Positions 1,207-28,767 of a DNA stretch of 64,000 bases are shown here, in pieces. The DNA is taken from the NCBI GenBank assembly GCA_965222345.1, contig CBDCTS010000007.1, positions 43,853 to 107,852 on the forward strand, given 5' to 3'. The first letter of the stretch is position 1. Every line of letters begins with the position of its first letter. The notes under the pieces were generated by a model. The model was not told the origin of the DNA. It was given only the letters and a program-made list of their open reading frames with translations, and searched no databases. Source of the stretch: Terriglobia bacterium. GTDB lineage: Bacteria > Acidobacteriota > Terriglobia > 2-12-FULL-54-10. Made by a program: the position numbers and the translations under genes.

Positions 1207-1207
1207 T

Positions 1208-2621: not shown

Positions 2622-2639
2622 AGCCATCGCTATTTTCTG

Positions 2640-4052: not shown

Positions 4053-4991
4053 GACCTGGCCCTGAAGGTTGCGTACGCGGGATCGAAAGGGTATCATCTG
4101 AGCAATCAGATCAGCGCGAATCTCCGGCCAGCGGTAATTCTTCCTGATGGGAGAAAACATTGGCCCAATAGGCGCGGGCCATTCGCCAACCCCATCTTGG
4201 GCGCCGTAAATATCTTGAACGCCAATTCTAATTCTTGGTACAACTCCCTCCGGGTTGAACTGGAGAAGCGGTTTGGCAGTGGCGGGGGGACGCTGGAGAA
4301 TCTTCGCTTCAAGTGGGCTTACACCTTTGCCAAATCCATTGATCACCATTCAGTCAACCAGAACAGCGCGGCACGCAACGGTCGATCGCGACCACTGGAC
4401 TCATTCGATCTCGAGAGAGAAAAGGCGCTTTCCAACTTCGATCTCCGCCACAACGTGACGTTCAATTTCGGCTACGGGCTCCCACGGTTTTATTCGGGTG
4501 GTGGGTTCGGAGCCACGCTGCTCAATGACTGGTCCATCAATGGGATTCTGACGGGGAATACCGGCCACCCGGCAGGAGTTGAAGTCGGGACTAACCGGTC
4601 TCAAAATGGGGAATCCTCCGTCGTTGACCGGCCGGATCTGGTGCCGGGAGGGGACACGAATCCCGTGTTAGGGGGTCCGGATGAATACTTTGATTTCCAA
4701 GACTTCCTTTTCCCGGGGGCCGGCTTTCACGGCAATCTGGGCCGGAACACTCTGATCATGCCGGGGTTGGTGACTTTTGATTTTTCCCTGGTCAAAGCTT
4801 TTCCCCTCTCGGAAAGGTTCGGGCTTCAGTTCCGGTCCGAGTTTTTCAACCTGTTCAATAGGCCGAACTTTGGAGCGCCGGCAAAGAGGCTTTTCAACAG
4901 TCGCGGCAAGCTACGCGGGTCGGTTGGACGAATTAGTAACACGGTGACCACCGCTCGCCAGATACAGTTTGGCCTGCGGCTGGAATTTTGA
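4053..4991 (+). pseudogene. TonB-dependent receptor, 3' portion (continuation of 39..1206)
   Basis: Begins with the duplicated target DLALKV. Ends FRSEFFNLFNRPNF...RQIQFGLRLEF, the typical TonB-dependent receptor C-terminal barrel strand. Confidence 0.75.
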
Positions 4992-5078: not shown

Positions 5079-6377
5079 GTGGATAACAAGAAACCTAGTC
5101 GCAGGCGATTCCTGAAGGAGGGAGTTGCGCTGCCGGTTCTCGCCATGGGTGGAATAGGCTCGGCCAGAGGTCAGACAACTGGGGCCCAGACACCCAAAGT
5201 ATGGCCCGAAGAATCCCGCGCTTATGGCAAGCGCTCAAGCTTCGACGACTTGGGGCGTGTTACCGAAAGCGGTAATCTCAGCAGCGGTGCGTTATTGACT
5301 CCGCATCAGGATTTGGAGGGGATCATCACTCCATCCCCACTCCACTACGTGGTGTCGCACGGGAATATTAATTCTGCCTTGGCCATCGACCACCGGAAGC
5401 ATCGTTTTCTGCTCCACGGCTTGGTCGACCGTCAATTGATCTTCACCCTGGAGGAGCTGAAACGCCTGCCCTCCGTATCCCGGATTCACTTTCTCGAGTG
5501 CTACTCCAACACCAACCCAACCCATCGGGTTCCTGTCGGCCCTGCCTCCAATACCACCCCAAGTTATCGGGGCCATGAGACGGTCCAGCTATCGCACGGG
5601 CGCACCAGTTGCAGCGAATGGACGGGGGTAAAGCTGTCCATGCTGCTCAAGGAGGCAGGCCTGCAGCCAGGGGCCAGTTGGCTGGTTGCGGAAGGGGCAG
5701 AGGCGGCTAGGCTTGCGATAAGCATTCCGCTGGAGAAGGCCATGGACGACGCGATGCTGGCCTACGCGCAAAATGGCGAGCCGTTGCGTCCTGAGAATGG
5801 CCACCCCTTGCGTCTGTTGGTCCCCGGCTTTGAAGGGATCAATAGCGTGAAGTGGCTGAGGCGAATCAAGGTGGTGGACCGGCCCTACGGGACCAAGAAC
5901 GAAACCGCCCAGCACACCCACCTGGGACCGGACGGCAAAGCGCGTTGGTTCATGTTCGAATTAGGGCCGAAGTCGGTCGTCACCAGACCCTCGGGCGGAC
6001 AGCGATTGCCTGGCCCCGGATTTTACGAGATCACCGGATTAGCTTGGTCGGGTGGAGGTACCATCCGAAGGGTGGAAGTCTCCACCAACGGGGGCCGAGA
6101 CTGGAAAGATGCGCAGCTTCAGGAGCCGGTGCTGCGATTGGCACATACCCGGTTTCGCTTCACTTGGAATTGGAACGGAGAAGAGGCGGTGTTGCAGTCC
6201 CGCTGCACCGACGATCAGGGGACCGTCCAGCCCTCGATAACCGAGGTTGCTAACGTCTGGGGTGTGAGCCTGGACTATTTCCAAACCACAACCAATAGCG
6301 TCGGGAGGTTCAATCCCATTCAACCCTGGAGGGTAACCCGTGAAGGTAACGTTCAAAATGCGTTATGGGAGTTCTAA
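5079..6377 (+). CDS. Sulfite-oxidase-family molybdopterin oxidoreductase (SorA/SoxC-like sulfite dehydrogenase catalytic subunit), TAT-exported
   Basis: Twin-arginine motif SRRRFLKEG at the N-terminus. The Mo-domain and dimerisation region are conserved. ~65% identical to the paralog at 16999..18249. The 3' end overlaps the downstream cytochrome gene. Confidence 0.75.
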   Translation: MDNKKPSRRRFLKEGVALPVLAMGGIGSARGQTTGAQTPKVWPEESRAYGKRSSFDDLGRVTESGNLSSGALLTPHQDLEGIITPSPLHYVVSHGNINSALAIDHRKHRFLLHGLVDRQLIFTLEELKRLPSVSRIHFLECYSNTNPTHRVPVGPASNTTPSYRGHETVQLSHGRTSCSEWTGVKLSMLLKEAGLQPGASWLVAEGAEAARLAISIPLEKAMDDAMLAYAQNGEPLRPENGHPLRLLVPGFEGINSVKWLRRIKVVDRPYGTKNETAQHTHLGPDGKARWFMFELGPKSVVTRPSGGQRLPGPGFYEITGLAWSGGGTIRRVEVSTNGGRDWKDAQLQEPVLRLAHTRFRFTWNWNGEEAVLQSRCTDDQGTVQPSITEVANVWGVSLDYFQTTTNSVGRFNPIQPWRVTREGNVQNALWEF

Positions 6378-6954
6378 GGTTCTGGCACCAGCGATGGTTC
6401 TAGCTACCTGTGTCGTGGCAGTAGCGCAGACGCCAACCTATAATCTGGGCAGAACCCCGAGTGCTGAAGAAATCCGGGCCTGGGACATCTCCATCGGACC
6501 CGAAGGGAAGGAACTGCCTCCGGGCAGCGGAACCGCCGAACAAGGCGCGCCGATCTATGCCCAAAAGTGCGCGGCCTGCCATGGATCAACCGGTGCGGAG
6601 GCCCGTGGCCCGTCTCGTTCAACGACTCGCAGATCACGTGCCCCCTTGGTGGGAGGCCAAGGCACCCTCACCAGTATTCACCCTGTGAAGAGTATCGGGA
6701 GTTACTGGCCTTACGCAACGACGGTATGGGACTATATCAACCGCGCTATGCCAGCGGACCAAGTGGGATCCCTCACTGCCGACGAGGTCTATGCATTGAC
6801 CGCGTTACTGCTTTATCGAAACGGCATCATCCAGGAGAGCGACGTCATCGACGCCAAGAGTCTTCCAGAAGTCCGCATGCCGAACAGAAATGGATTCGTC
6901 CCGCCGGTGGAAAAACTCAGTCGATGGCGTTGCCGCCAAGGACCTTGTCCTTGA
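6340..6954 (+). CDS. Monoheme cytochrome c (SorB-like electron-acceptor subunit)
   Basis: Signal peptide and a single CAACH heme-binding motif. Paralog of 16437..17033. Translationally coupled to the upstream Mo-enzyme gene. Confidence 0.7.
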   Translation: MKVTFKMRYGSSKVLAPAMVLATCVVAVAQTPTYNLGRTPSAEEIRAWDISIGPEGKELPPGSGTAEQGAPIYAQKCAACHGSTGAEARGPSRSTTRRSRAPLVGGQGTLTSIHPVKSIGSYWPYATTVWDYINRAMPADQVGSLTADEVYALTALLLYRNGIIQESDVIDAKSLPEVRMPNRNGFVPPVEKLSRWRCRQGPCP

Positions 6955-7135
6955 AGCACGCTGGCTAACGGAACTCTCCGATCTTCGAAGAGCAGAGGCT
7001 TCAGCTTTCTTGCCATGAAGGCTTAGAGGTTCAGTGCATCGAGCGCCTGAGGTGAAGAATACCGGGGCGTTGGTTTCAAACGATCTGTTTCCTTCCTCGC
7101 CTTGGACTATGCAAATTTGAGGGCCGGAACATGGA

Positions 7136-8800
7136 TTGCTGGAGGAAAAGGCCGTGCTAACCAAGATCAGTATGCCTAAGACAAGTCGAGGAGCGGTGAT
7201 GCTGATGATGGCTTTGGCCATGATGGGCTCCGACCGCTTGCAAGCTCAGAACAGCACCCTGACGGGTGTTGTCCAAGACGCTTCCGGGCAGCCGGTAGCC
7301 GGAGCTCTTGTCAAAGTCAAGAACTCAGATGCCGGCCTCACCTTCATGGTCGTGAGCCAGGTGCAAGGCCGATTCATCACCCCGATCCTTCCTCCCGGCA
7401 GCTACATGGTCCAGGGTTTCGGAGGTGGTTACCAAAGCTCTCAGTCGGGTCCAGTCGAGCTCAGCGAAGACCAGCAGGGGAAAGCGAATCTGGAGTTGAG
7501 TAACCCTCATAAGACGGTTGCACCAGGAAAGAAGATGACAGACACCGACTTCGCCAAGCTCATGCCGGAGGGAGACGGCAAACAACTTGTTCGAACCCAA
7601 TGTGTTCTCTGCCATGGCCTGGATCGGGTTGTTCCCACGAGGCATACCAGGGAACAGTGGCAACATACCGTGGACCGCATGCGGGCGTTTATTAATGAAC
7701 GCAGCGACCTTCAAAAGCGAATCAATCGCGGGCCCCTGTCGGATCAGGAATGGGATTTGGTCCGGGATTATCTGGCCGATAATTTCGGCATGGACAAGCC
7801 CCGCCTTCCCCGGAAGGGACCGCCCGATCCCAACCAACATTTCTCCAACACCTTGCTTCAGGGCGCCGAAGCTAAGTTCATCGCCATGGAGTTGGAACTG
7901 CCGAGCAATCGGGATGAATATGAGGTCGCCATAGATTCCAAGGGTACTGCCTGGATCAGCGAAAGAGAGACCAGCATGTTCGGTCGTTTCCACCCAGAGA
8001 CGTTTACCTATACCCGTCTTTCTACTCCCCCGGGCCAGGTTCCTCGCTTGGTGGCTCAAATCGGGGTCGATCCACGCGACCATGTATGGATTCTGGACAA
8101 CGGCCTCCGTCCGAAGGCCGAGTTACTGGAGTACGATCCCAAGACCGAGGAGTTTAATATCTATGAGATTCCCGCTCCCCCGGTATTCGGTTACGCTCCC
8201 CTCAACACACTCCGATTCCTGGATGGGGATGTCTGGGGACCGGGAAACGTATCCAATCGGATCGTGAAGCTGGACCCGAGTACCGGAGAAGTGAGTCTGT
8301 ACCCTGTTCCCAAAGGTTCACACCCGTACGGGATCGATGTCGGCCCAGATAAGATGGTTTATTACGTTGCCATGTATGACGACGAAGTTGTTCGACTGGA
8401 CCCGAAGACCGGCCAGCTAACACCATTCAGAGTGCCAACCCGGAAATCCGGACTGCGTCGGATGGGGGCCGACGCTGAAGGAAACCTCTGGGTAGGGGCC
8501 CAGAACATTGACAAACTGGTTAAGGTTGATCCTCGAACAGGCGAGGCTACCGAGTACACGGTACCCACAAAATATTCCGGCGTTTACACCGCAGACGTGG
8601 ACAAGGAACATAACCTGATCTGGTTCGTCGAGCGGGAAGCAGACAGAATCGGCCGGTTTGATCCGGCCAGCAACACTTTTGTCGAGTTTCCTCTGGTAAC
8701 TGCAGGAACGGAGTCCCGAAGGATTCTGGTAGACAAAAGCAACCCCAACCGGATCTGGTTTACAGGCCAGCGGATAGGCTACATTGAGGTCGTGGAATAA
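7136..8800 (+). CDS. Secreted CarboxypepD_reg-like domain + cytochrome c (CVLCH) + Vgb/NHL-like beta-propeller fusion protein
   Basis: Signal peptide; TGVVQDASGQPVAGALVKVKN Cna-B/CarboxypepD_reg segment; CxxCH motif; C-terminal repeated propeller blades. Paralogs at 13159..14826 and 40139..41425. Confidence 0.65.
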   Translation: MLEEKAVLTKISMPKTSRGAVMLMMALAMMGSDRLQAQNSTLTGVVQDASGQPVAGALVKVKNSDAGLTFMVVSQVQGRFITPILPPGSYMVQGFGGGYQSSQSGPVELSEDQQGKANLELSNPHKTVAPGKKMTDTDFAKLMPEGDGKQLVRTQCVLCHGLDRVVPTRHTREQWQHTVDRMRAFINERSDLQKRINRGPLSDQEWDLVRDYLADNFGMDKPRLPRKGPPDPNQHFSNTLLQGAEAKFIAMELELPSNRDEYEVAIDSKGTAWISERETSMFGRFHPETFTYTRLSTPPGQVPRLVAQIGVDPRDHVWILDNGLRPKAELLEYDPKTEEFNIYEIPAPPVFGYAPLNTLRFLDGDVWGPGNVSNRIVKLDPSTGEVSLYPVPKGSHPYGIDVGPDKMVYYVAMYDDEVVRLDPKTGQLTPFRVPTRKSGLRRMGADAEGNLWVGAQNIDKLVKVDPRTGEATEYTVPTKYSGVYTADVDKEHNLIWFVEREADRIGRFDPASNTFVEFPLVTAGTESRRILVDKSNPNRIWFTGQRIGYIEVVE

Positions 8801-8902
8801 GAAGAGGGAGCCTACCTTCCCTTTCGACAGTAAGACATCTGGATGACATGACTATCGAGGCGGAGGAATGGCCCTTAAAATTGGGAGGCGAATAGAAGTC
8901 AG

Positions 8903-9551
8903 ATGAAAGGGATAACAAGCAAAGCGCTGTTTTCGTTCGTAAGTCTGGTCTTGGCAGTGACCCTGCTAGTGGGCAGCGCAGGGCTCCGGTCCGCTTCCTC
9001 CCAATCGGCAGTAGCGGACTCCCCTCCTCCCCTGGCTGAAGAGGTCTACGAAAATATCGATGTCCTAAAAGGTGTGCCCTATAGTCTGGTGATTCCCACA
9101 ATGTATCTGTTCTCGGAGTCACTTGGCGTAGAATGCGACTATTGCCACGCCCCAAGCAGGATGCGGCATTTGGACGTGAAGCCTGCCAAACAGACCGCAA
9201 AAGAAATGCTGCGGATGGTCAATACCATCAACCAGAACAACTTCGGTGGAAATCCCAAGATCACTTGTCAAATGTGCCATCGTGGGCGCCCCAAGCCGGT
9301 CGATCAACAGATTCTCGCCGGTGAGCCTCTGGAGATACTCTCCGCCGAATCGAATCGAGCCGGGGATATCGATTCGGAATTGGAGCTCACGGTGGATCAA
9401 GTTCTCGACACTTACACAACCGCACTTGGCGGGGCAGCCGCTCTTGAGAAGATTTCCACCCGCGTGGAAAGGGGTGTTGTTACCGAGCGCAGGACCGACC
9501 GACCCGAGACGGTTGCGGTGGAAATCTATTCCAAGTTTCCGGACAAACGGT
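8903..9551 (+). pseudogene. Diheme c-type cytochrome, 5' part, interrupted by an IS3-family insertion
   Basis: Signal peptide and two CxxCH motifs (CDYCH, CQMCH). Reading resumes in frame at 10813 (SVAHIGNLEPAFGIYDGEEGW...). This aligns residue-for-residue with the intact paralog at 15161..16378. Confidence 0.75.
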
Positions 9552-9628
9552 GGACCTGCCCCCCCAAAAACGGTCCAGTTGATAAGTTAGAGTAAAGGGT
9601 TTCAACTGGACTTGAAAAAGGGGGAAGG

Positions 9629-9907
9629 ATGGCTAAGAAGCGGTATACGGTCGAACAGATCATCCGACATCTACGAGAGGCAGAAGTGGAACTGGCTAAG
9701 GGCCAGACAACGGGAGTGGTCTGTCGGAAGTTGGGAATCACGGAGCAGACATATTATCGATGGCGGAAGGAGTATGGGAGCTTGCGGGTTGATCAGGTGA
9801 GGCGTTTGAAGGAACTGGAACGGGAGAATGGCCGACTGAAGAAGTTGGTAGCGGATCAGGCGTTGGACCTTGCGATTCTGAAGGAGGCATCCTCGGGAAA
9901 CTTCTAA
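9629..9907 (+). CDS. IS3-family transposase OrfA (HTH)
   Basis: 92 aa. MAKKRYTVEQIIRHLREAE...RWRKEYG is the typical IS3/IS911 OrfA helix-turn-helix followed by a leucine zipper. Confidence 0.85.
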   Translation: MAKKRYTVEQIIRHLREAEVELAKGQTTGVVCRKLGITEQTYYRWRKEYGSLRVDQVRRLKELERENGRLKKLVADQALDLAILKEASSGNF

Positions 9908-9930
9908 GCCCGTGCCGACGGAGGCAGGCA

Positions 9931-10782
9931 GTGGAGCGTGTCTGTCAGACCTTGGGAGTGTCGGAGCGGCGGGCGTGTCGAGTGCTGAGGCAGTACCGAT
10001 CCACCCAGCGGCATCGAACCTTGACACCACAGGATGAACCGCGACTGGTGACCCGGACGCTGCAGTTAGCCGGCGAGTACGGTCGATACGGCTACCGGCG
10101 AATCACGGCGCTGTTGCGACGGGAGGGGTGGAGGGTGAACCATAAGCGGGAGAGAATCTGGAGGCAGGAGGGACTGAAAGTGCCGAAGAAACAACCCCGG
10201 AAAAGCCGCCTGTGGTTGAACGATGGGTCGTGTCTTCGGTTAAGACCGTGCTGGCGGGATCATGTCTGGGCGTACGATTTTGTGGCAGATCGAACCCAGG
10301 ATGGTCGTCCCCTGAAGATGTTGACGGTGGTGGATGAGTACACGCGAGAATGTTTGGCAATCGACGTAGAACGGCGAGCTGATTCGATGAGTGTCTTGGA
10401 ACGGCTGGCAGCCTTGTTTGTGGAGCGAGGAGTTCCCGATTACATTCGCTCGGATAACGGGTCCGAGTTCACAGCACGGTTGGTTCGGAACTGGCTGGAG
10501 CGGGTAGGGGTAAAGACCTTGTTCATCGAGCCGGGGAGCCCATGGGAAAACGGGTATGTAGAATCGTTGAACGGGAAGTTTCGAGACGAGTTTCTCAATG
10601 GGGAGATCTTCTACACCTTGCAGGAAGCGAAGGTGTTGATTGAGGGATGGCGGCGGGAGTATAACAAAGTTCGCCCGCACAGCGCGTTAGGCTACCGGCC
10701 GCCAGCCCCGGAAGCGATCCTGCCGTTACGGCCGGGTTCCGCTCCGCTCCACCCGGCTGCAACGGCTTATGGACTAACATAA
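9931..10782 (+). CDS. IS3-family transposase OrfB (rve integrase core, DDE)
   Basis: 283 aa with the conserved integrase catalytic core. Carries a 1-codon deletion relative to the copy at 43186..44040. Confidence 0.85.
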   Translation: MERVCQTLGVSERRACRVLRQYRSTQRHRTLTPQDEPRLVTRTLQLAGEYGRYGYRRITALLRREGWRVNHKRERIWRQEGLKVPKKQPRKSRLWLNDGSCLRLRPCWRDHVWAYDFVADRTQDGRPLKMLTVVDEYTRECLAIDVERRADSMSVLERLAALFVERGVPDYIRSDNGSEFTARLVRNWLERVGVKTLFIEPGSPWENGYVESLNGKFRDEFLNGEIFYTLQEAKVLIEGWRREYNKVRPHSALGYRPPAPEAILPLRPGSAPLHPAATAYGLT

Positions 10783-10812
10783 AAAGTGGACCAACAACCG
10801 GGGGCAGGTCAC

Positions 10813-11336
10813 GGTCGACCAGGGGTTTCTCGGTAGCCCACATTGGAAATCTCGAACCAGCTTTCGGAATCTATGACGGGGAGGAAGGCTGGCTCCGAGA
10901 GTCGGATGGCCCCGTGCGCGTTATGTACCGATCGCGACTCGATGCTGCCAAACTGGAAGATACGCTAACCCTCTCCAGGGGTGTGGAACGGATTGTCAAC
11001 CAACTGGTTTTTGAGGGTACGGAAAAGGTCGGCGATCGGGAAACATACGTACTTTCCGGCCGGACCCAGATTTTACCCCTCGTCAAACTTCACTTTGATC
11101 AGGCCTCCGGCTTACTGACCCGGCTGGAATATTTCACGGCGACGCTGGTTGGCTCCTATCCGACTGTGGTGGAGTATTCCGATTATCGGGAGGTGGATGG
11201 TATAAAGGTCCCCTTCCGCTGGACCGTGGCCCTGATCAGGAATCGTCGATTGATATATCAAATACAAGAAGTGGAGCAGAATATCCCGATCGATGACTCT
11301 GTGTTCGCCCAGCCCACCTCATCTCCGGAATTTTGA
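10813..11336 (+). pseudogene. Diheme c-type cytochrome, 3' part (continuation of 8903..9551)
   Basis: In-frame continuation. The C-terminal domain aligns with the paralog 15161..16378 (…RLEDTL…YSDYR(D/E)V(D/E)G…). Confidence 0.7.
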
Positions 11337-12021
11337 GAAACGAGCCTGGGCTGTATTTTCAGATGGAGACATTCCACCAGAGCGAGCGGCACATCCTGCT
11401 TTGCAGTCATCCTCCTATCCAACTAACCCGCATAATTCACCAGAAGGACCAGAGATAAGGCCGCCCTGTTTGGTAAAGGCGTTTAACAAGAACGTCTAAC
11501 AAACTAAACGGAGGCGACCCTTATGACTACAGGAGGTAACTAGGCCACATTGGAATTTCACGGACTCGTTCAATGCAAAGTGAAGGCCCGATTCGGCGGA
11601 TGAAACATCACCTACGACGCCGGGGGATTTGCTGTTGCGGAAGTGGAAAAGCGGATCGGACCGCTGGCGTGATTGGCCGGGTGTTTTCGCAACCACCGGG
11701 ATTCACGGTTGATCAAGCACACCACTTTTGACAATATCTCTCTTAACGGCAGCCGGGTATATAATCGCATGTGCTGAAGGTGCATTGAAGCATTTCAATG
11801 CGATTTATGCAACGGGCTGGAAAGTATAATCAGTTTGATATGATGGACTCGATGTTGAGCGGCAATACATTCCAGGTCCGATCACTTATGACACTGAGGC
11901 CACCCGCAGTCTTTATGCAAGCGAGAAAGAATTATTTTCATGGAGATTTCCAGTGTGACGGTGATTATGAAATCCTGAACCCAGCGGGTTCCAAGACTGA
12001 TTTTAGTGGGTTTTTTGACCA

Positions 12022-13077
12022 TTGAGCGCAGTGGCTTCTATGAGGAGTATCGAGATGATTAAACCATTATCGGGGCTGTTTTTCGGGGGGGGTGTTATCG
12101 TTTTAGCTGTATTAGCTTGGCTGGCGATGCAAGCTGAACAGGAACCGGGCGGGACGAGTGAGAAAAGCGTCGTTCAACTGGACCCGGCGCTGGACACGAT
12201 TGTGGACCTTGAAGCGAAACTGGAATTGCTTTCCGATGATTTCCCGCACACCTCCCGACCTTCCACGGAAGGACCTGTCTGGATCGACAGCAGCGAGGAG
12301 CCTGACGGAGGCTATTTCCTGTTCACCGACTCACGGCGCTCTCGACTCGCCAAGTGGAGCACCCGCGCTGGATTGACCGGAGCATACGATCTCCAGGAGA
12401 TGCTGGGCGAACTTGACCCGGCCCGATCATCTTCGAGTGGCTTGGCCATCGACCCGCAAAGGCGTGTGGTGTTTTGCTCCTCCGGCAGACACGCCGTAGT
12501 ACGCATTGAGAAGAATGGCACGCCGACGATTCTGGCGGAATCCTACGACGGCAAGCGGCTCGATAATCCCAATGATCTAACGATCAGCGCCGACGGGTCG
12601 ATCTACTTCACCGACAATGCCCGCGAGGAGACGAGGCAGATGCCACCCACGGTTTATCTGCTGAAGGACGGCGATCTGACCCCGCTGATCACAGATCTGA
12701 CAAGCCCTAACGGCATTACCCTTTCGCCCGATGGCACGGTGCTTTACGTGAACGACATTCGTCCGCGAAAATTGTATCGCTACGAAGTCCAGCCGGACGG
12801 TTCAGTTGCCAATGGCCGGCTCTTTGTCGACATGAGTGGCCGCGAGGAGCCCGGCGCCAACGACGGCATGCGGACGGATCGAAACGGAAATCTTTACAGC
12901 AGCGGCCCCGGCGGAGTGTGGATCATCTCGCCCAACGGCAAGCATATGGGCACAATCCTTGCGCCCGACCGCATCACGAACCTGACCTTTGGGGGTGCCG
13001 ACGGCAAGACACTCTTCATGACTGCACATGGCTCCATATTCCGCATCCAGTTGAAGGCGAGTGGCCGGAGGCAATAG
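12022..13077 (+). CDS. SMP-30/gluconolactonase/LRE-family six-bladed beta-propeller protein
   Basis: N-terminal hydrophobic segment, then the typical lactonase-like blades (…DNPNDLTISADGSIYFTDN…, …SPNGITLSPDGTVLYVND…). Confidence 0.7.
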   Translation: MSAVASMRSIEMIKPLSGLFFGGGVIVLAVLAWLAMQAEQEPGGTSEKSVVQLDPALDTIVDLEAKLELLSDDFPHTSRPSTEGPVWIDSSEEPDGGYFLFTDSRRSRLAKWSTRAGLTGAYDLQEMLGELDPARSSSSGLAIDPQRRVVFCSSGRHAVVRIEKNGTPTILAESYDGKRLDNPNDLTISADGSIYFTDNAREETRQMPPTVYLLKDGDLTPLITDLTSPNGITLSPDGTVLYVNDIRPRKLYRYEVQPDGSVANGRLFVDMSGREEPGANDGMRTDRNGNLYSSGPGGVWIISPNGKHMGTILAPDRITNLTFGGADGKTLFMTAHGSIFRIQLKASGRRQ

Positions 13078-13158
13078 CTCTGCGTCAAGGGCTTCTGCAT
13101 CCAGCCCAGGGCTGTGAATGACTGTCATTCGATGGACTCGCCAGTCGTTTCAGTGGAC

Positions 13159-14826
13159 CTATTCAAGAATATCAATATAGCCGAACCCTCCATCCGAACA
13201 TCCCCACCACACTCGGTTTGGGTTGGACGGGTCCACCAGAACCCTTCGAGCCTCTGAAGCCCTGTGTACCAGCGGAAATTCAGTAAAAGACTCCGTTGAG
13301 GGGTCGAACCGGCCTAACTTGTCTCCGTCACGTTCGCTGAACCAAACCAGATTGTGGACTGTATCCACGTCCACGGAATACGGCCCTGCATTTGGCGTGG
13401 GCACATCGTATTCAGACATTTCACCACTCTCCATGTGGAGCTTGATCAGTTTGCCCGTATTCTGAGCACCAATCCACATGTTGCCAACCGCATCTCCTCC
13501 CATCCGGCGTATTCCAGATCCTCGCCGAGTTTTATGCGTTTTCGTCTCACCTGTCAACGGATCGATCCGTACAATGGCATTGTCGTAGTTCCCCGTGTAC
13601 CAGACCGCCTGATCCGACCCGATCGCGATCCCGTAGGGATGCGAGCCCTTCGGTGCCGGATATTCTGTGATCTCACCGCTGGCCGGGTCGAGCCGGATCA
13701 CCCGGGTCGATGCATTCCCCGTACCCCAGACGTACCCGTTCAGGAATCGAATGGTGTTGATGGGGGCCCTCAACAGGTCCGGCGCCTTGATCGGATATTC
13801 GCGAAATTCTTCTGTCGTCGTACTGTATCGAAGCAGGGCCGCATCCGGCGTGGGCCCATTGTCCAGAATCCAGACGTCTCCGTTCGGATCGACTGCGATC
13901 TGAGCCAGAATTCTTGGGACACTGCCTTCCGGCACCTTGATTTTTGTGTACGTTAACGAATCGGGATCAAAGAAACCAAACCTGTCTGTTCTACCTTCCG
14001 TGATCCATGCATTACCCTCGGCATCCACCCCGATTTCGTACTCCCCGGATCCGTTCGGCGGCGCAAATTCCATCACGATAAACTTTTCGTCGAACAGATC
14101 CATCGGGATATGGGTATTCGGACCGCTGTCGCTTTCCTGCGCGGGAATCGGAGGCACCTCCATCCCGTTGTGTGTAGACAGGTAAGCAACCATATCATCC
14201 CTTTCCTGCTTGAAAATGGGCTGCAACCGGAACTCCTCCAGCAAATCCGGCCGTTCGTTCAGGAACCAAACCATTCGGTCCACAGACTTCTCCCAGGTCT
14301 GTCTGTTGTGCCGCGTCGGTGCGATCCTGTCCAGATGATGGCAGAGGACGCAACGGGTCATAATCAACTCGCGGCCATTTGCTTCTCTCCCTTCGGCCTC
14401 CGGCATCAGTCTTGCGTAATCCTGCAAACTCATTCGGGCTTCTGGTTCCGGGATCGCTCTTGGAATATCCAGTGTAATGTCGATCAGCGGAGCGGAGTCT
14501 GCCCGTACCGCGAACGCGTCAGAAACACGGCTTTCAAAACCCTCCCCAAACCCCTGTGCCTTGTAAGTTCCTGCCAACAACCTCGGCGTCGCAAAATCAC
14601 CACCTTCCTTGCTGACAACGAGAAACGACAAGCCGGAATCCTCGCTCTCGACCCGCACCACAGCTCCTGCAATTGCTTGCCCGTCAGCATCCCGGACGAT
14701 CCCTGAAATAATGGGACCATCACCATCCGACCCTGACTGGCAGGCGAACGTCAGCAGAATAGCCAGACACAAAACGCCTGCCCTTCCTTTCCTCCATTGC
14801 ACGCGATTCTGTTTTGACAAGATCAT
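13159..14826 (-). CDS. CarboxypepD_reg-like + cytochrome c + beta-propeller fusion protein (paralog of 7136..8800)
   Basis: 555 aa. CVLCHHLDRIAPTRH heme motif. Same domain order and length as 7136..8800. Confidence 0.65.
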   Translation of the reverse strand: MILSKQNRVQWRKGRAGVLCLAILLTFACQSGSDGDGPIISGIVRDADGQAIAGAVVRVESEDSGLSFLVVSKEGGDFATPRLLAGTYKAQGFGEGFESRVSDAFAVRADSAPLIDITLDIPRAIPEPEARMSLQDYARLMPEAEGREANGRELIMTRCVLCHHLDRIAPTRHNRQTWEKSVDRMVWFLNERPDLLEEFRLQPIFKQERDDMVAYLSTHNGMEVPPIPAQESDSGPNTHIPMDLFDEKFIVMEFAPPNGSGEYEIGVDAEGNAWITEGRTDRFGFFDPDSLTYTKIKVPEGSVPRILAQIAVDPNGDVWILDNGPTPDAALLRYSTTTEEFREYPIKAPDLLRAPINTIRFLNGYVWGTGNASTRVIRLDPASGEITEYPAPKGSHPYGIAIGSDQAVWYTGNYDNAIVRIDPLTGETKTHKTRRGSGIRRMGGDAVGNMWIGAQNTGKLIKLHMESGEMSEYDVPTPNAGPYSVDVDTVHNLVWFSERDGDKLGRFDPSTESFTEFPLVHRASEARRVLVDPSNPNRVWWGCSDGGFGYIDILE

Positions 14827-15160
14827 TTCCTCCTTAAACCAAAATAGAATCTTCCATCAGCACGGATTCTCTCTGCACATTGTCTCCGACAGCATCCTTT
14901 TTCCGACGCGGCAAATGCTCCACTGAAGTCTTCTCATTCGCAGCAATGCCTATTGCGGCACCCGAAGCTTACATCCATTCAGCAGCCCGTTGTCAGACCG
15001 AACAGTATCTCGGACGCGGTAGCAGCCAAAATCTGAATTGAGCAAACCTCTTTATCCAATTCTCAACTGGCCTTGTCGTTTCGCTCAGTGCTCGACCAGC
15101 CATATTCGAAAGTGAAGGATTGAATCCGGAAAGAAACTAATCTGCCCAAACGGCACGCAA

Positions 15161-16378
15161 CTAGCGGTACAGTGAAGGAAGAGGAGTTGGAAGGAGAAAA
15201 TTCGTCTCCGGAACCTCTCCGTTCTGTCGCACATCATTGATTTGATAGCGGGCTCGCACTCCTCTCACAACTGCTACATCCCATTGGTGAGGAATCAGCA
15301 CTCCTTCCACATCTCTGTAGTCTGAATAGTCAATCCGGCTGGGAAATATCCCTACCACCGTATTCGTGTAATACTCGATTCGCTGCAGCAGGGCTGTATT
15401 CTTTCCGAAATACAGTTCAACCTCGGGAAGGTATTCCGTACTGCCGGAGACCACATACACATCCTCGCCATCGATCGAGGTTGCTCGGTTCACCCGGAGT
15501 TGGCGGATGAACTTTTTTACGTTCATCGGGAAATTGAGCGTGTCCTCCAATCTTGCTGCGTCTCGCCGCCATCCAAACATGATCCTTGTGGGGCCGGAAC
15601 CCTCGCGCATCCACCCTGCGTCCCCGTTGTAAACACCGTAAGCACGGGAACTGTTTCCAAGATGCGAGACGGAATATGATTTCGTATATCTCTTGTCAGG
15701 AGAAACTGCAATTGCCTCAATGGGAAGGGTGACGGGCGGCTGATTCGGACGAGTCGATGTGACTGTTCCACGTTCTATGCGGGTTTTGATCTCCCCCAGC
15801 GCATCGGCTCCCCCCAAGGCCTCTATGTAACGCGCGAGCACTTCATCCACAGTTGGCAGGGGTGTCTCATCGGGTTTACGGTCCGACGGGGCGGAATCCG
15901 ACCGCACGGCAACGCCATCGGCCTGCTGGACCGCATCACCGCGGCTTCTTCCAAGTACGCTTTCCCAGTCCGGCATCGTTTCCGTCAACGGCACACCACG
16001 GTGGCAGGTGTAACAGGTTACTACAGTCCGGCCTCCAAAGGATTCCCGGTTGATTGTCGCGACCATTTGAAACATTCTCCGCGAAATCTGCTTCTGAGGA
16101 ATGCCCTCCACAGCCCGGTTATCTTCTGCATGGCAAAATTCGCACTGCACACCTAGCATCTCTGACACTAGCTGCATCGTGGGAATCAGTTCTCCATACG
16201 GAACGCCCCGAAATACTTCGATGTTGTCGTATACTTCTTCGGCTAGCTTGGAGGAGGGATGGGCATAGGACAGGTCCGCGGCCTCACCGGAAGATTGCCC
16301 TGCTGTCCCGGCGCTGGTTAGCCAGAGCAGGGAGAAGGTTAGTGCTGTCAGAATGATGATCTTGCCGGCGCTTCCCAT
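15161..16378 (-). CDS. Diheme c-type cytochrome (intact paralog of the IS-split gene at 8903/10813)
   Basis: CEFCH and CYTCH motifs. The start is probably the internal Met (MGSAGKIIILTALTF… signal peptide); the ORF track extends to 16504. Confidence 0.65.
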   Translation of the reverse strand: MGSAGKIIILTALTFSLLWLTSAGTAGQSSGEAADLSYAHPSSKLAEEVYDNIEVFRGVPYGELIPTMQLVSEMLGVQCEFCHAEDNRAVEGIPQKQISRRMFQMVATINRESFGGRTVVTCYTCHRGVPLTETMPDWESVLGRSRGDAVQQADGVAVRSDSAPSDRKPDETPLPTVDEVLARYIEALGGADALGEIKTRIERGTVTSTRPNQPPVTLPIEAIAVSPDKRYTKSYSVSHLGNSSRAYGVYNGDAGWMREGSGPTRIMFGWRRDAARLEDTLNFPMNVKKFIRQLRVNRATSIDGEDVYVVSGSTEYLPEVELYFGKNTALLQRIEYYTNTVVGIFPSRIDYSDYRDVEGVLIPHQWDVAVVRGVRARYQINDVRQNGEVPETNFLLPTPLPSLYR

Positions 16379-16436
16379 CTCCCGCTCAACCTCCGGTTTG
16401 GCAACCATGATCCTACGCTCCAGCGGCATAGACTCC

Positions 16437-17033
16437 CTATGGGCAGGTCCCGGTTTGGCAGCGCAGCCGGTTGATATCTTCCAGCTTCGTGGGTACAAAT
16501 CCATCTCGGTTCGGCATATTGATCTTCGGCAGGCGCTCTCTGTTCAGCTCTTCGTCTTCCTTCAAAATCCCGTTCCAATAGAGGATGAGGGCAGTCAATG
16601 AATACACCTCATCCGGTTTAAGCGTTCCTTCCTGGCCCCTTGGCATTCCACGATTGATGACGTCCCAGATGGTTGTAGCAAATGCCCAGTAACGTCCTGC
16701 GGAACGGACTGGATGTGGCGTAGTGAAAGTTCCGTCTCCACCCACAAGAGGAACCCTCGGTCCACCTGGAACAACTTCCTTCCCCGTCGGGCCATGGCAA
16801 ACGGCGCACTTCTGGGCATACAGCGGAGCACCCTGCTCCGCCGTTCCTTTGCCTGGAGGCAATTCTTTTCCTTCCGGACCGATGGAGATATCCCAAGCCC
16901 GCGCCTCCTGCGGCGTCGGTGCTCTCCCGACGCCATAGGTCGGCATCTGCGCATTGACATGAGAAACACCACTCAGTGCGAGGATGACCGCAACTCCACT
17001 AAACGTCCCAAACCGCATTTTGAACTTTCCCAT
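16437..17033 (-). CDS. Monoheme cytochrome c (SorB-like), paralog of 6340..6954
   Basis: Signal peptide and CAVCH motif. Overlaps the stop of the upstream Mo-enzyme gene. Confidence 0.7.
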   Translation of the reverse strand: MGKFKMRFGTFSGVAVILALSGVSHVNAQMPTYGVGRAPTPQEARAWDISIGPEGKELPPGKGTAEQGAPLYAQKCAVCHGPTGKEVVPGGPRVPLVGGDGTFTTPHPVRSAGRYWAFATTIWDVINRGMPRGQEGTLKPDEVYSLTALILYWNGILKEDEELNRERLPKINMPNRDGFVPTKLEDINRLRCQTGTCP

Positions 17034-18249
17034 TGCGAGTAATCCTCCATGGCTGAATCGGATTGAAATGGATAACCGTATTCGTGGTTGTACGGAAATA
17101 GTCCGGCGTTACTCCCCACATTTCCGCGAACTCAAGCAGCGACGGTTGCCGGACACCCTGGTCATCCGTGCACCGAGAGAGCAGCATTACCTCCTGTCCT
17201 TCCCAATTCCATGGGAAGCGGAATCTCACATGCGCTTTCGGCAGAATCGGATTCTGCAGTTCGGCATCCTGCCAATTTGACCCGCCATCCACGGAAACCT
17301 CCACCCTGCGAATCGTTCCCAGCCCGGACCAGGCCAGCCCGGTGATTTCATGGAAACCCTTGTGAGTGAGTTCCTGCCCGCCGGACGGAAACGTGATGAC
17401 GGATTTCGGCCCCATCTCGAAGTTGAACCATCTTGCCTTGCCGTCGCCTCGCAGGCTCGGGTTGTTGCTGCTCTCCGTATGCGTCATGAAGGGACGGTCG
17501 CCGACCTTGATGCGTCGGAGCCATTTCACGTTCCGCACTCCCTCCCAACCCGGCACCAATAGCCGCAACGGATACCCCTGGTCGGGCCGGATCATCTCTC
17601 CGTTCTGCCCATAGGCCAGTAACACATCGTCCATCGCCTTTTCGAGTGGAATGCTCATCGCATGCTTGACTCGATCCGCAGACTCGGCCACCAGCCAGCT
17701 GGCATTCGGCTTCAACCCGGCTTCCCGTAGTACCAGCGACAGCAGCACACCGGTCCATTCACTGCAACTCGTCTTGCCGTGGCGTTCCTGTACGGTTTCC
17801 GCTGCATGCCGTCCACGAGTGGGATTGGTGTTCGATACGCACTCCACAAAGTGGATTCTCGAGACGGAGGGAAGTCTCTTCAACTCCTCCATCGTTAGCA
17901 TCAATGGCCTCTCCACCATTCCGTGAATCATCAACCGATGCCGGCTCGGGTCGATGTCGGGAGGTTTTGCATCCCTGGTGAACACGTAATGCAGAGCCGA
18001 AGGTGTGATGATGCCGGCCAAATCCTGTAAGGGCGTATAGGTGCTCGGCCCTCCGGTACGTGTCCGCGTACGAACCGATTTCTCGAACCGCGAGCGCCGC
18101 CCGTACTCCCTCAGATCGGGCTTGTTCTCCGTCTCCTCCCCGGAGCTTGTTTCCTGACTCCGGCCAGCGATCACGGAACCTGCCACGATTCCTCCGAACA
18201 GGGTAGTCTGCTTCAGAAATTTTCTCCGTTGCTGATCTTGCTCCTTCAT
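16999..18249 (-). CDS. Sulfite-oxidase-family molybdopterin oxidoreductase (SorA/SoxC-like), TAT-exported, paralog of 5079..6377
   Basis: QQRRKFLKQ twin-arginine signal. Conserved Mo-domain residues. ~65% identity to 5079..6377. Confidence 0.75.
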   Translation of the reverse strand: MKEQDQQRRKFLKQTTLFGGIVAGSVIAGRSQETSSGEETENKPDLREYGRRSRFEKSVRTRTRTGGPSTYTPLQDLAGIITPSALHYVFTRDAKPPDIDPSRHRLMIHGMVERPLMLTMEELKRLPSVSRIHFVECVSNTNPTRGRHAAETVQERHGKTSCSEWTGVLLSLVLREAGLKPNASWLVAESADRVKHAMSIPLEKAMDDVLLAYGQNGEMIRPDQGYPLRLLVPGWEGVRNVKWLRRIKVGDRPFMTHTESSNNPSLRGDGKARWFNFEMGPKSVITFPSGGQELTHKGFHEITGLAWSGLGTIRRVEVSVDGGSNWQDAELQNPILPKAHVRFRFPWNWEGQEVMLLSRCTDDQGVRQPSLLEFAEMWGVTPDYFRTTTNTVIHFNPIQPWRITRNGKVQNAVWDV

Positions 18250-28745: not shown

Positions 28746-28767
28746 TCTCTTCAATATAAACGATCCG

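What the first reader, a model, noticed from the sequence alone, without database searches (positions are those of the whole stretch)
5079..18249. Mirror-image paralogous respiratory-type clusters (SorA-like Mo enzyme, cytochrome c, cyt-c/beta-propeller fusion, diheme cytochrome) flanking a lactonase-like gene
Genes at 5079..11336 (+) and 13159..18249 (-) form two ~6 kb clusters in inverted orientation, with the same four-gene order and ~55-65% protein identity. This indicates an old duplication rather than an assembly artefact. Each encodes:

- a TAT-exported sulfite-oxidase-family molybdoenzyme with an overlapping monoheme cytochrome (SorAB-like);
- a secreted CarboxypepD_reg + cytochrome c + Vgb/NHL-like propeller fusion (a third, shorter paralog lies at 40139..41425);
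- a diheme cytochrome with a C-terminal non-heme domain.

An SMP-30/gluconolactonase-like propeller gene sits at the symmetry centre. The cytochrome-propeller fusions are not a well-characterised family. Their combination with a SorAB-like pair suggests a periplasmic oxidation pathway (organosulfur or sulfite, or a lactone/aryl-ester substrate feeding electrons to cytochromes). The pathway has not been described, to my knowledge.
Basis: partly seen in the sequence, partly recalled or inferred. Interest (0 to 1): 0.5.

Follow-up and report, generated by a model that had tools for sequence, protein, structure and literature searches.

The report
Two diverged SoxCD-cytochrome-propeller gene modules
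Two facing gene clusters in a soil Acidobacterium are two old versions of a conserved, unstudied four-gene periplasmic module: a SoxCD-type molybdenum enzyme plus two unusual cytochromes, and one version was recently hit by a jumping gene.

Summary
The two inverted clusters are real. The same mirror arrangement occurs in two other independent assemblies. Several details in the finding are wrong.

- **Enzyme type:** the Mo enzyme and its cytochrome are SoxC/SoxD-type, not SorAB. NCBIfam TIGR04555 scores 445 and 471 bits against a cut-off of 420, and the best PDB match is 2XTS chains A and B.
- **Gene order:** it differs. Left is C-D-fusion-diheme; right is C-D-diheme-fusion.
- **Identities:** 57, 57, 45 and 43%, not 55-65%.
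- **Left diheme gene:** it is split by a 1261-bp IS3 element with a CGG target duplication. Sister strains keep an intact 389-aa gene.
- **Origin:** this is not a local duplication. Each cluster has closer relatives in other Acidobacteria than in its neighbour, and those relatives share its gene order. A relative about 91% identical in DNA has only the right cluster plus the lactonase gene.

The four-gene module recurs in every examined contig that carries the close diheme subclade. Module-linked SoxC lacks the active-site Tyr of sulfite oxidases (Asn or His instead). Module-linked SoxD ends in a rare CxxGxCP tail. The propeller has the Vgb lyase fold, but an invariant Arg replaces catalytic His270.

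The most likely function is periplasmic oxidation of sulfite or a related sulfur compound, with electrons passing to a four-haem cytochrome relay. The substrate is unproven. I rate this a new variant of a known kind, of moderate interest.

The parts
39..1223 (+). 5' part of a CarboxypepD_reg/OMP_b-brl_4 (TonB-dependent-receptor-like) outer-membrane gene that precedes the left cluster. The gene is split by IS elements.
   Evidence: Pfam OMP_b-brl_4 profile positions 148-552 of 838. The gene is intact (995-1069 aa) in sister assemblies L084 and L085.
1207..4050 (-). Two tandem ISNCY copies inserted in the OMP gene.
   Evidence: Identical 428-aa ISNCY transposases at 1260-2546 and 2691-3977. Copies are 99.7-99.9% identical to each other and to a third copy at 37058-38483. 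An 18-bp direct repeat flanks the pair. The insert is absent from L084 and L085.
4041..4991 (+). 3' part of the same OMP gene.
   Evidence: Pfam OMP_b-brl_4 profile positions 544-838 of 838.
5079..6377 (+). Left SoxC-type molybdoenzyme with a TAT signal (RRRFL).
   Evidence: TIGR04555 444.7 bits (cut-off 420). PDB 2XTS_A E = 2.8e-68. Mo-ligand Cys conserved. The active-site Tyr equivalent is His, and the R-x-H motif reads V-S-H.
6340..6954 (+). Left SoxD-type monohaem cytochrome c. It overlaps soxC and ends in the tail RCRQGPCP.
   Evidence: 57% identical to the right copy. One CxxCH motif. Tail analysis.
7136..8800 (+). Left CarboxypepD_reg + cytochrome c + Vgb-fold seven-bladed propeller fusion.
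   Evidence: Pfam domains. 45% identical to the right copy but 51-57% to fusions in L003, L010, L087 and L168.
8903..9550 (+). 5' part of the left dihaem (PufC-like) cytochrome gene.
   Evidence: Pfam CytoC_RC. Aligns to residues 51-274 of the right copy.
9551..10811 (+). IS3-family element (orfA 9629-9907, orfB 9931-10782) inserted in the left dihaem gene.
   Evidence: IS3 transposase NF033516 215 bits. Terminal repeats TGGACCTGCCCCC / TGACCTGCCCCC and a CGG target duplication at 9548-9550 and 10812-14. The empty site AAACGG|TCGACC is present in L084 and L085. A second copy lies at 43157-44419.
10812..11336 (+). 3' part of the left dihaem gene (LolA-like domain).
   Evidence: Aligns to residues 307-445 of the right copy. 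Removing the IS in silico gives a 389-aa ORF that matches L085 at 388 of 389 residues.
12022..13077 (+). SMP-30/gluconolactonase-like (SGL) propeller with an N-terminal membrane anchor or signal. It is convergent with the right fusion gene.
   Evidence: Pfam SGL 146.5 bits. Conserved next to the right cluster in L001 and L009, which lack the left cluster at that site. A 62% homologue lies among fusion genes in L003.
13159..14826 (-). Right CarboxypepD_reg + cytochrome c + Vgb-fold propeller fusion, probably a lipoprotein.
   Evidence: Pfam domains. AlphaFold2 pLDDT 88.7. Best Foldseek match is Vgb lyase 2Z2O/2QC5, TM 0.87-0.88. Vgb H270 aligns to invariant R527.
15161..16429 (-). Right dihaem PufC-like cytochrome with a C-terminal LolA-fold domain. 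The ORF extends to 16504, but homologues start near 16429 or 16408.
   Evidence: Pfam CytoC_RC. Two CxxCH motifs. AlphaFold2 C-terminal domain pLDDT above 85. Foldseek finds LolA-superfamily proteins 3BUU, 9TP6 and 4Z48.
16437..17033 (-). Right SoxD-type monohaem cytochrome c, ending in the tail RCQTGTCP.
   Evidence: PDB 2XTS_B E = 4e-36. Tail analysis.
16999..18249 (-). Right SoxC-type molybdoenzyme with a TAT signal (RRKFL).
   Evidence: TIGR04555 471.2 bits (cut-off 420). PDB 2XTS_A E = 1.8e-75. The Tyr equivalent is Asn, and the R-x-H motif reads F-T-R.
18524..31968 (-). Co-directional upstream array that continues the right cluster: NHL/lactonase-like pair (18524-19369, 19370-20773), amidohydrolase (20858-22786), ankyrin (22994-24589), DUF1552 (24637-25986), DUF1592/PSCyt (25983-28553) and CarboxypepD_reg-OMP (28768-31968).
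   Evidence: Pfam domains. The array from the NHL pair up to the DUF1552 gene is conserved in L001 and L085, and the NHL pair also in L009; the 10-kb flanks end before DUF1592 and the OMP. The same families accompany fusion homologues in L003-L006, L010, L011, L086 and L087.
40139..42677 (-). Distant third cytochrome c + Vgb-fold propeller (40139-41425, no CarboxypepD_reg domain) next to a bicupin (41583-42677).
   Evidence: About 25% identical to the right fusion. The Vgb catalytic residues are also replaced here. Cupin homologues (51-52%) lie next to fusion genes in L003 and L004.

Best explanation
The window holds one copy each of two anciently separated versions of a conserved acidobacterial four-gene periplasmic module.

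**Components of the module**
- A TAT-exported SoxC-type molybdopterin enzyme.
- An overlapping monohaem SoxD-type cytochrome with a CxxGxCP C-terminal tail.
- A dihaem PufC-like cytochrome fused to a LolA-fold domain.
- A CarboxypepD_reg + His/Met cytochrome c + Vgb-fold seven-bladed propeller protein.

**The two versions**
- Version A has the order C-D-dihaem-fusion. This is the right cluster. It is resident at this chromosomal site in related genomes, as the tail of a roughly 19-kb co-directional array headed by a TonB-receptor-like outer-membrane protein.
- Version B has the order C-D-(OMP)-fusion-dihaem. This is the left cluster. It is present only in this strain lineage at this site.
- In the sequenced strain, version B has just been damaged. 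An IS3 element splits its dihaem gene, and two ISNCY copies split the outer-membrane gene upstream.

**Proposed mechanism (inferred, not shown)**
- The Mo centre of SoxC oxidises sulfite or a closely related sulfur substrate in the periplasm.
- Electrons pass to the SoxD haem and then through the three further c-type haems of the two accessory proteins towards the respiratory chain.
- The propeller and LolA-fold domains supply substrate handling or docking that is not yet understood.
For: **SoxCD identity**
- TIGR04555 scores 444.7 and 471.2 bits against a cut-off of 420.
- PDB 2XTS_A matches at E = 1.8e-75 and 2.8e-68; 2XTS_B matches at 4e-36.
- TAT motifs and haem motifs are present. The Mo-ligand Cys is invariant.

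**The module is conserved**
- The close dihaem subclade (at least 44% identity) lies beside SoxC, SoxD and a fusion gene in every contig I could inspect: L086, L087, L168 and a JGI contig, plus both window clusters.
- Two gene orders occur.
- None of 80 loci holding the broader dihaem family (31-38% identity, apart from one short 47% contig) has SoxCD or a fusion nearby. The link is therefore specific.

**Two old versions rather than a local duplication**
- Identity matrices are congruent for all four proteins. winR versus L086 gives 80/65/55/60%. The winL fusion and dihaem proteins match L087b and L168 at 53-57% and 49-53%, against 45% and 43% to winR.
- SoxC ranks and the NJ tree agree.
- More than 100 SoxC homologues are 56-63% identical to SoxC_L.
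- Relatives L009 and L001 align only from window position about 12050 onwards.

**IS damage is recent**
- Empty sites, an intact 389-aa gene and an intact OMP gene are present in L084 and L085.
- A second IS3 copy and a third ISNCY copy in the window are more than 99.7% identical to the inserted copies.

**Electron-relay role**
- The haem Cys/His residues and candidate axial Met are invariant in both accessory families.
- All proteins carry export signals.
- Fusion homologues also lie directly downstream of a TAT-type xanthine-oxidase-family Mo subunit in 8 loci. That is the position a cytochrome subunit usually occupies.
- SoxCD lies within 10 kb of fusion homologues in 8 further independent loci out of about 75.
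Against: - No biochemical data exist for any module protein.
- Canonical SoxCD works on sulfur bound to SoxY (PMC5336275). I saw no soxYZ, soxAX or soxB in the related loci, and no GGCGG C-terminus in 2.4 Mb of fetched DNA including the window. The canonical substrate is therefore probably absent.
- Module-linked SoxC has lost residues that are conserved in sulfite-oxidising enzymes and in Paracoccus SoxC. Tyr322 becomes Asn or His, and Arg138 becomes Phe or Val. Sulfite may not be the substrate.
- The closest fusion relatives (L003-L006, L010, L011) lie in loci without SoxCD. The fusion is therefore not an obligate SoxCD partner.
- In the 8 distant loci, SoxCD lies 4-9 kb from the fusion, not adjacent.
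- The propeller may be an enzyme in its own right rather than a docking domain.
Confidence: 0.6

Rival explanations
1. A single ancestral SorAB-like four-gene cluster was duplicated in inverted orientation at this locus, around the lactonase gene.
For: The two clusters face each other around one gene. All four proteins are homologous.
Against: - The gene order differs between the clusters.
- Each cluster has closer relatives elsewhere that share its own gene order.
- The other window SoxC ranks only 50th and 90th.
- Relatives 88-91% identical in DNA carry the right cluster plus SGL without the left cluster at that site.
- The pair is SoxCD, not SorAB.
Confidence: 0.07
2. The module is not a sulfite dehydrogenase. 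The SoxC variant (Tyr replaced by Asn or His, Arg replaced by Phe or Val) oxidises a different substrate. Candidates are a sulfur species tethered to the CxxGxCP tail of SoxD, which would stand in for SoxY, or a product made by the Vgb-fold propeller from an imported organic compound. The extra cytochromes carry the electrons away.
For: - Active-site substitutions are specific to module-linked SoxC.
- The Cys tail is specific to module-linked SoxD and occurs in only 2 of the 150 best SoxD representatives.
- No SoxY-type gene is nearby.
- The modules lie in loci with a TonB-receptor-like outer-membrane protein and several hydrolase or propeller genes.
- An invariant Arg cluster (R527, R528, R538) sits where Vgb has its catalytic His.
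Against: - Both SoxC copies still score above the curated SoxC cut-off.
- The residue equivalences rest on sequence alignment only.
- The two tail Cys residues may simply form a structural disulfide.
- No carrier or lyase chemistry has been demonstrated.
Confidence: 0.25
3. The co-location is incidental. SoxCD is an ordinary stand-alone sulfite-detoxifying enzyme. It happens to lie beside unrelated secreted cytochromes that belong to a polymer or xenobiotic uptake locus (OMP, DUF1592/DUF1552, ankyrin, cupin, lactonases).
For: - The closest fusion homologues lie in such loci without SoxCD.
- The broad dihaem family has no SoxCD link.
Against: - The four genes stay adjacent in six independent, diverged contexts, in two gene orders and across 43-80% identity.
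- The linked SoxC and SoxD carry their own lineage-specific features.
Confidence: 0.08

Closest known systems
SoxCD sulfane dehydrogenase of the Sox system (Paracoccus pantotrophus, PDB 2XTS)
   Same: - Same two-subunit layout: a TAT-exported Mo/dimerisation-domain subunit plus an overlapping downstream c-type cytochrome.
- Best sequence match for both subunits.
- Both Mo subunits score above the TIGR04555 cut-off.
- Like SoxC, they lack the Arg190 equivalent of sulfite oxidase.
   Different: - No soxYZ, soxAX or soxB nearby.
- SoxD is the short monohaem form, which is the common form among representatives.
- SoxD has an extra CxxGxCP tail.
- The active-site Tyr and Arg kept by Paracoccus SoxC are replaced.
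- Two additional cytochrome genes are fixed next to the pair.
Acidobacterial soxCD homologues without soxABXYZ (Hausmann et al., Peatland Acidobacteria, bioRxiv 10.1101/197269)
   Same: Same phylum and the same observation: a soxC orthologue with a short N-terminal-type soxD directly downstream and no other sox genes. The authors left the function open.
   Different: That paper does not describe the accompanying dihaem/LolA-fold and cytochrome-propeller genes, the two gene orders, or the residue changes.
SorAB / SorT sulfite:cytochrome c oxidoreductases (Starkeya novella 2BLF, Sinorhizobium 4PW3)
   Same: Same enzyme superfamily, and the same logic of a periplasmic Mo enzyme donating electrons to a c-type cytochrome. 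The haem domain of the fusion weakly resembles SorB (NF052246, E = 3e-6 to 3e-4).
   Different: - SorA and SorT models score 119-129 bits against cut-offs of 570-600.
- PDB E-values are about 1e-20, against 1e-75 for SoxC.
- The adjacent cytochrome is SoxD-like, not SorB-like.
Virginiamycin B (streptogramin B) lyase Vgb
   Same: Seven-bladed propeller fold: TM 0.87-0.88, rmsd 2.6 A, 26% identity. Pfam Vgb_lyase is matched above its cut-off.
   Different: - Vgb(A) and Vgb(B) models score 57-93 bits against a cut-off of 600.
- Catalytic His270 aligns to an invariant Arg, and His228 aligns to Tyr.
- The protein is exported and fused to a cytochrome c and a CarboxypepD_reg domain.
Photosynthetic reaction-centre cytochrome PufC, and NCBIfam NF033196 'c-type cytochrome, non-photosynthetic'
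   Same: The N-terminal region matches the first two haem-binding units of PufC.
   Different: - Two haems instead of four.
- It scores below the PufC cut-off (65 bits against 150).
- It carries a C-terminal LolA-superfamily domain.
- There are no photosynthesis genes in the window.

Membership tests
SoxC (TIGR04555 sulfite dehydrogenase SoxC) | Whole-protein score above the curated equivalog cut-off. | tested here: met
   444.7 bits (left) and 471.2 bits (right) against a cut-off of 420.
SoxC (TIGR04555 sulfite dehydrogenase SoxC) | Mo-ligand cysteine and a TAT export signal. | tested here: met
   The Cys is invariant in 119 of 119 homologues and in both window copies. RRRFL and RRKFL motifs are present.
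SoxC (TIGR04555 sulfite dehydrogenase SoxC) | Conserved active-site Arg-x-His and Tyr of sulfite-oxidising enzymes. Paracoccus SoxC keeps them. | tested here: not met
   Left copy: V-S-H and His. Right copy: F-T-R and Asn. Paracoccus SoxC and chicken sulfite oxidase: R-x-H and Tyr. This rests on sequence alignment only.
Sox thiosulfate-oxidation system | Presence of soxYZ, soxAX and soxB with soxCD. | tested here: not met
   - None appears in the gene tables of six related loci.
- None appears among the roughly 50 window ORFs put through Pfam and/or NCBIfam, mostly those of at least 200 aa.
- No GGCGG C-terminus occurs in the window or the module loci.
- Absence from the whole genome was not testable.
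SoxD | c-type cytochrome homologous to 2XTS chain B, encoded directly downstream of soxC. | tested here: met
   E = 4e-36 over residues 33-183. The genes overlap soxC by 35-38 bp.
SorAB sulfite:cytochrome c oxidoreductase | SorA and SorB equivalog scores above cut-off. | tested here: not met
   SorA scores 129.4 and 126.5 bits against 600. The adjacent cytochromes have no SorB hit.
MsrP/YedY | MsrP equivalog score. | tested here: not met
   26.6 and 30.5 bits against a cut-off of 207.
Vgb streptogramin B lyase | Seven-bladed propeller fold. | tested here: met
   Foldseek TM 0.87-0.88 to 2Z2O and 2QC5.
Vgb streptogramin B lyase | Catalytic His270 (the H270A mutant is inactive, per the 2Z2P entry title) and the His228/Glu268 metal site (recalled from memory). 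| tested here: not met
   H270 aligns to invariant R527, H228 to Y483 and E268 to E525. The third paralogue has Arg, Ala and Tyr at these positions. Vgb(A) and Vgb(B) models score at most 93 bits (137 for the third paralogue) against a cut-off of 600.
PufC reaction-centre cytochrome | Four haem-binding motifs and a score above the cut-off. | tested here: not met
   Two CxxCH motifs. NF040706 scores 65 bits against 150.
IS3 family insertion sequence (element at 9551-10811) | orfA/orfB transposase, TG-initiated terminal inverted repeats and a 3-bp target duplication. | tested here: met
   NF033516 scores 215 bits. Terminal repeats and the CGG duplication are present. The empty site occurs in L084 and L085.

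The most novel reading that the evidence does not exclude
The module is a self-contained, SoxYZ-independent periplasmic oxidation system of soil Acidobacteria. A re-tooled SoxC (Tyr replaced by Asn or His) acts on a substrate that is either carried on the C-terminal Cys tail of its own SoxD subunit or produced by the Vgb-fold propeller from an imported organosulfur compound. A dedicated four-haem relay, including a LolA-fold cytochrome, delivers the electrons to respiration.
Probability: 0.15. Interest if true: 0.75.

Novelty: new variant of a known kind. Interest (0 to 1): 0.45.

Why it matters
- **Annotation risk.** SoxCD homologues without the rest of the Sox system are common in soil Acidobacteria. 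Pipelines name them 'sulfite dehydrogenase' without any test.
- **A defined subgroup.** This work picks out a subgroup with fixed partner genes, changed active-site residues and a Cys tail. Its activity can be assayed directly.
- **Sulfur cycling.** If the subgroup oxidises sulfite or another sulfur compound for energy, it adds a sulfur-cycling trait to abundant soil heterotrophs.
- **Two unstudied families.** It gives a first functional context to two widespread but unstudied cytochrome families.
- **A natural control.** The IS-disrupted and intact strains provide a natural knockout comparison.

Tried and rejected
- **Rfam scan of the whole window.** It found only a tRNA. No Moco riboswitch lies upstream of either soxC.
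- **Promoter and terminator scans of 4000-19500.** Counts were not above the shuffled expectation, so they gave no operon boundaries.
- **Literature searches.** Searches combining streptogramin/virginiamycin lyase with cytochrome c, sulfite dehydrogenase or Acidobacteria found nothing. The SoxCD structure paper and the SorA active-site paper are not held.
- **Metagenome scan with the dihaem alignment.** It returned almost only the broad family (31-38% identity), which has no SoxCD link. That was useful as a negative control but added no new module examples.
- **Distant loci.** In the 8 distant (mostly alphaproteobacterial) loci where SoxCD co-occurs with a fusion, the genes lie 4-9 kb apart and are not adjacent. 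I treat this as weak support only.
- **Assembly artefact or recent inverted repeat.** I rejected both: there are no megablast hits between the clusters, and three assemblies agree.
- **SorAB and MsrP assignments.** I rejected both on model scores.
- I re-ran it without that sequence.
- **Model coordinates.** They cannot be inspected, so I could not check where the invariant Arg residues lie in the propeller.

Full report
**1. What is in the sequence**

On the + strand lie:
- a 432-aa Mo enzyme (5079-6377);
- an overlapping 204-aa cytochrome (6340-6954);
- a 554-aa fusion protein (7136-8800);
- a 230-aa ORF (8903-9595);
- two transposase ORFs (9629-9907 and 9931-10782);
- a 140-aa ORF (10914-11336).

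On the - strand lie:
- a 416-aa Mo enzyme (16999-18249);
- a 198-aa cytochrome (16437-17033);
- a 447-aa dihaem protein (15161-16504);
- a 555-aa fusion protein (13159-14826).

An SGL-type propeller gene (12022-13077, +) lies between the two sets. Pairwise identities are 57% (Mo), 57% (cytochrome), 45% (fusion) and 42-43% (dihaem), all with vanishing E-values. The mirror arrangement and the paralogy are therefore real.

**2. The left dihaem gene is interrupted**

- The 230-aa and 140-aa ORFs match the N- and C-terminal parts of the right dihaem protein.
- Between them lies a 1261-bp IS3-family element (9551-10811). Its ends are TGGACCTGCCCCC and TGACCTGCCCCC, and it has a CGG target duplication.
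- Removing the element and one CGG restores a 389-aa ORF.
- Two metagenome assemblies that are 98-99% identical in DNA (L084, L085) carry the uninterrupted site AAACGG|TCGACC. Their 389-aa gene matches the reconstruction at 388 of 389 residues (L085) and 375 of 389 (L084).
- Those assemblies also have an intact outer-membrane gene upstream of the left soxC. In the window that gene is split (39-1223 and 4041-4991) by two tandem ISNCY copies.
- Both IS types have further copies in the window that are more than 99.7% identical. The insertions are therefore recent.
- The three assemblies agree on the mirror arrangement, and the clusters share only 66% DNA identity over 989 bp. An assembly artefact is excluded.

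**3. Identity of the Mo enzyme pair**

- Both Mo subunits exceed the curated cut-off of NCBIfam TIGR04555 (SoxC): 444.7 and 471.2 bits against 420.
- The SorA, SorT and MsrP models score far below their cut-offs.
- The best solved structure is SoxCD 2XTS. Chain A matches at E = 1.8e-75 and 2.8e-68, and chain B matches at 4e-36. SorA matches at only about 1e-20.
- The pair is therefore SoxCD-type, not SorAB-like.
- Short monohaem SoxD is the usual form: 135 of the 150 best representatives have one haem motif.
- Acidobacterial soxCD without soxABXYZ has been noted before, with the function left open (bioRxiv 10.1101/197269).
- Public annotations already call close homologues 'sulfite dehydrogenase' or 'sulfane dehydrogenase SoxC'.

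**4. The accessory proteins**

*Fusion protein.*
- It has an export signal (a lipobox in some members), a CarboxypepD_reg domain, one c-type haem domain and a propeller. The haem Cys, Cys and His residues and a Met are invariant.
- The AlphaFold2 model is confident (pLDDT 88.7). The propeller superposes on virginiamycin B lyase (TM 0.87-0.88).
- Vgb His270 aligns to an invariant Arg (R527), and His228 aligns to Tyr. The 2Z2P entry is the inactive H270A mutant.
- The Vgb models score 57-93 bits against a cut-off of 600.
- The protein has the Vgb fold but is not a Vgb lyase.

*Dihaem protein.*
- It matches the first two haem units of PufC.
- It carries a C-terminal domain with a LolA-superfamily fold.

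**5. Is the four-gene grouping conserved?**

- The fusion family has 75 loci in GTDB genomes: Terriglobia and other Acidobacteriota, Alphaproteobacteria, Verrucomicrobiia and Binatia.
- Its closest relatives lie with DUF1592/DUF1552, ankyrin, cupin, SGL and TonB-receptor-like OMP genes, and without SoxCD.
- SoxCD lies within 10 kb in 8 further independent loci, but 4-9 kb away rather than adjacent.
- In 8 loci the fusion lies directly downstream of a TAT-type xanthine-oxidase-family Mo subunit.
- The dihaem family is large. Of 80 metagenomic loci returned with its alignment, nearly all from the broad family (31-38% identity), none has SoxCD or a fusion nearby.
- Every inspected member of the close subclade (at least 44% identity) lies in a SoxC-SoxD-dihaem-fusion or SoxC-SoxD-OMP-fusion-dihaem block: L086, L087, L168 and a JGI contig.
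- The module is therefore a real, specific and recurrent unit with two gene orders. I call them A (C-D-dihaem-fusion) and B (C-D-(OMP)-fusion-dihaem).

**6. Origin of the two copies**

- winR groups with the version-A locus L086: SoxC 80%, SoxD 65%, dihaem 55%, fusion 60%.
- The winL fusion and dihaem proteins are closer to the version-B loci L087b and L168 (53-57% and 49-53%) than to winR (45% and 43%).
- More than 100 SoxC homologues are 56-63% identical to SoxC_L. The other window copy ranks 50th and 90th.
- Relatives at 88-91% DNA identity (L009 from the Terriglobia chromosome OZ240237.1, and L001) align with the window only from about 12050 rightwards. They have SGL and version A but not version B at that site. 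In L001 an IS element and an integrase lie next to SGL.
- The window therefore holds two anciently separated versions side by side, not a local inverted duplication.
- Version A is the tail of a co-directional array reaching to 31968: NHL pair, amidohydrolase, ankyrin, DUF1552, DUF1592 and OMP. In relatives the array is conserved as far as the DUF1552 gene, where the fetched flanks end.

**7. Lineage-specific features of the module's SoxCD**

- I aligned both window copies with Paracoccus SoxC and chicken sulfite oxidase. The Mo-ligand Cys is invariant.
- The Tyr322 equivalent is Asn in winR, L086, L087b and nine other homologues. It is His in winL and P0078.
- That Tyr is kept in Paracoccus SoxC, in the non-module SoxC of L087, and in 98 of 119 homologues.
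- The Arg138-x-His140 motif reads F-T-R (right) and V-S-H (left).
- The importance of this Tyr in sulfite-oxidising enzymes is documented. See the titles of Kappler et al. 2006 and Wilson & Rajagopalan 2004 in the reference list of PMC4760952.
- Module-linked SoxD proteins all end in R-C-R-x-G-x-C-P. Non-module SoxD proteins lack this tail, and only 2 of the 150 best representatives have it.
- These equivalences are alignment-based. I could not check them on coordinates.

**8. Mechanism**

*Shown:*
- all module proteins are exported;
- a SoxC-type Mo subunit is paired with a SoxD-type haem subunit;
- three further c-type haems are encoded in fixed partner genes;
- the module is embedded in loci with a TonB-receptor-like OMP.

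*Inferred:*
- a sulfur compound (sulfite being the default) is oxidised in the periplasm at the Mo centre;
- electrons pass from SoxD through the accessory cytochromes to the respiratory chain.

Canonical SoxCD acts on SoxY-bound sulfane and can also oxidise sulfite (PMC5336275). No SoxY-type gene was found in the related module loci or among the annotated window ORFs, and no GGCGG C-terminus occurs in the window or the module loci. The residue changes and the Cys tail leave room for a different substrate or a self-tethered one. I give that rival about 0.25.

**9. Verdict**

- The SoxCD core is a known, already-annotated kind.
- The fixed association with the two accessory cytochromes, the two gene orders, the active-site changes and the SoxD tail make it a new variant of a known kind.
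- I found no description of it in the literature available to me.
- Interest is moderate. It is a well-defined and testable module, but nothing yet contradicts the default expectation of a periplasmic sulfur-compound dehydrogenase.

Noticed in passing
window 1207-4050 and 37058-38483: There are three ISNCY copies, 99.7-99.9% identical. Two lie in tandem inside an outer-membrane gene, flanked by the 18-bp direct repeat AGACCTGGCCCTGAAGGT. The third lies in the opposite orientation 33 kb away.
   Followed up: partly
window 43157-44419 and 44381-45400 (-): A second IS3 copy (99.76% identical to the one in the dihaem gene) abuts a nucleoside-transporter ORF. That ORF's Nucleos_tra2_C match stops at profile position 115 of 213, so the gene is probably truncated by the IS.
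   Followed up: partly
window 6340-6954 and 16437-17033; L009, L001, L086, L087, L168, L018: SoxD proteins linked to the module end in a conserved R-C-R-x-G-x-C-P C-terminus. It is absent from other SoxD proteins and rare among representatives (2 of 150).
   Followed up: partly
window 5079-6377 and 16999-18249: Both SoxC copies score as 'sulfite dehydrogenase' but lack the active-site Tyr (His or Asn instead) and the Arg of the R-x-H motif. Paracoccus SoxC and sulfite oxidases conserve both.
   Followed up: partly
window 40139-42677 (-): A distant cytochrome c + Vgb-fold propeller lies next to a bicupin. Cupin homologues 51-52% identical lie next to fusion genes in L003 and L004, which suggests a second conserved pairing.
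   Followed up: partly
window 22994-31968 (-); L003, L004, L006, L010, L011, L086: DUF1592 (PSCyt/PSD), DUF1552 (HXXSHH) and ankyrin-repeat genes recur beside fusion-family genes in several Acidobacteria. Their functions are unknown.
   Followed up: partly
L022, L023, L027, L029, L040, L046, L067, L083: A gene for a xanthine-oxidase-family Mo-cofactor subunit with a TAT signal occurs within 10 kb of a fusion-family gene. In L022 and L023 it lies directly upstream. In L023 and its close relatives, metallo-beta-lactamase-fold and Kelch-propeller genes follow.
   Followed up: partly
L087 (two divergent SoxCD pairs), L063, L070: Other genomes also carry two SoxC genes within one locus. In L087, one is the Tyr type without the SoxD tail and the other is the Asn type with it.
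   Followed up: partly
window 48000-55000: This is a lower-GC stretch (52-54%). It holds an N6/N4 DNA methylase fused to an HNH nuclease (50737-52284), a PD40 propeller gene and an NYN/OST-HTH protein (53753-55015). It may be mobile or defence-related DNA.
   Followed up: no
window 32506-32577 (-): This is the single tRNA gene and the only Rfam match in the window. It lies between the OMP gene and the pyrH-tsf-rpsB group.
   Followed up: no
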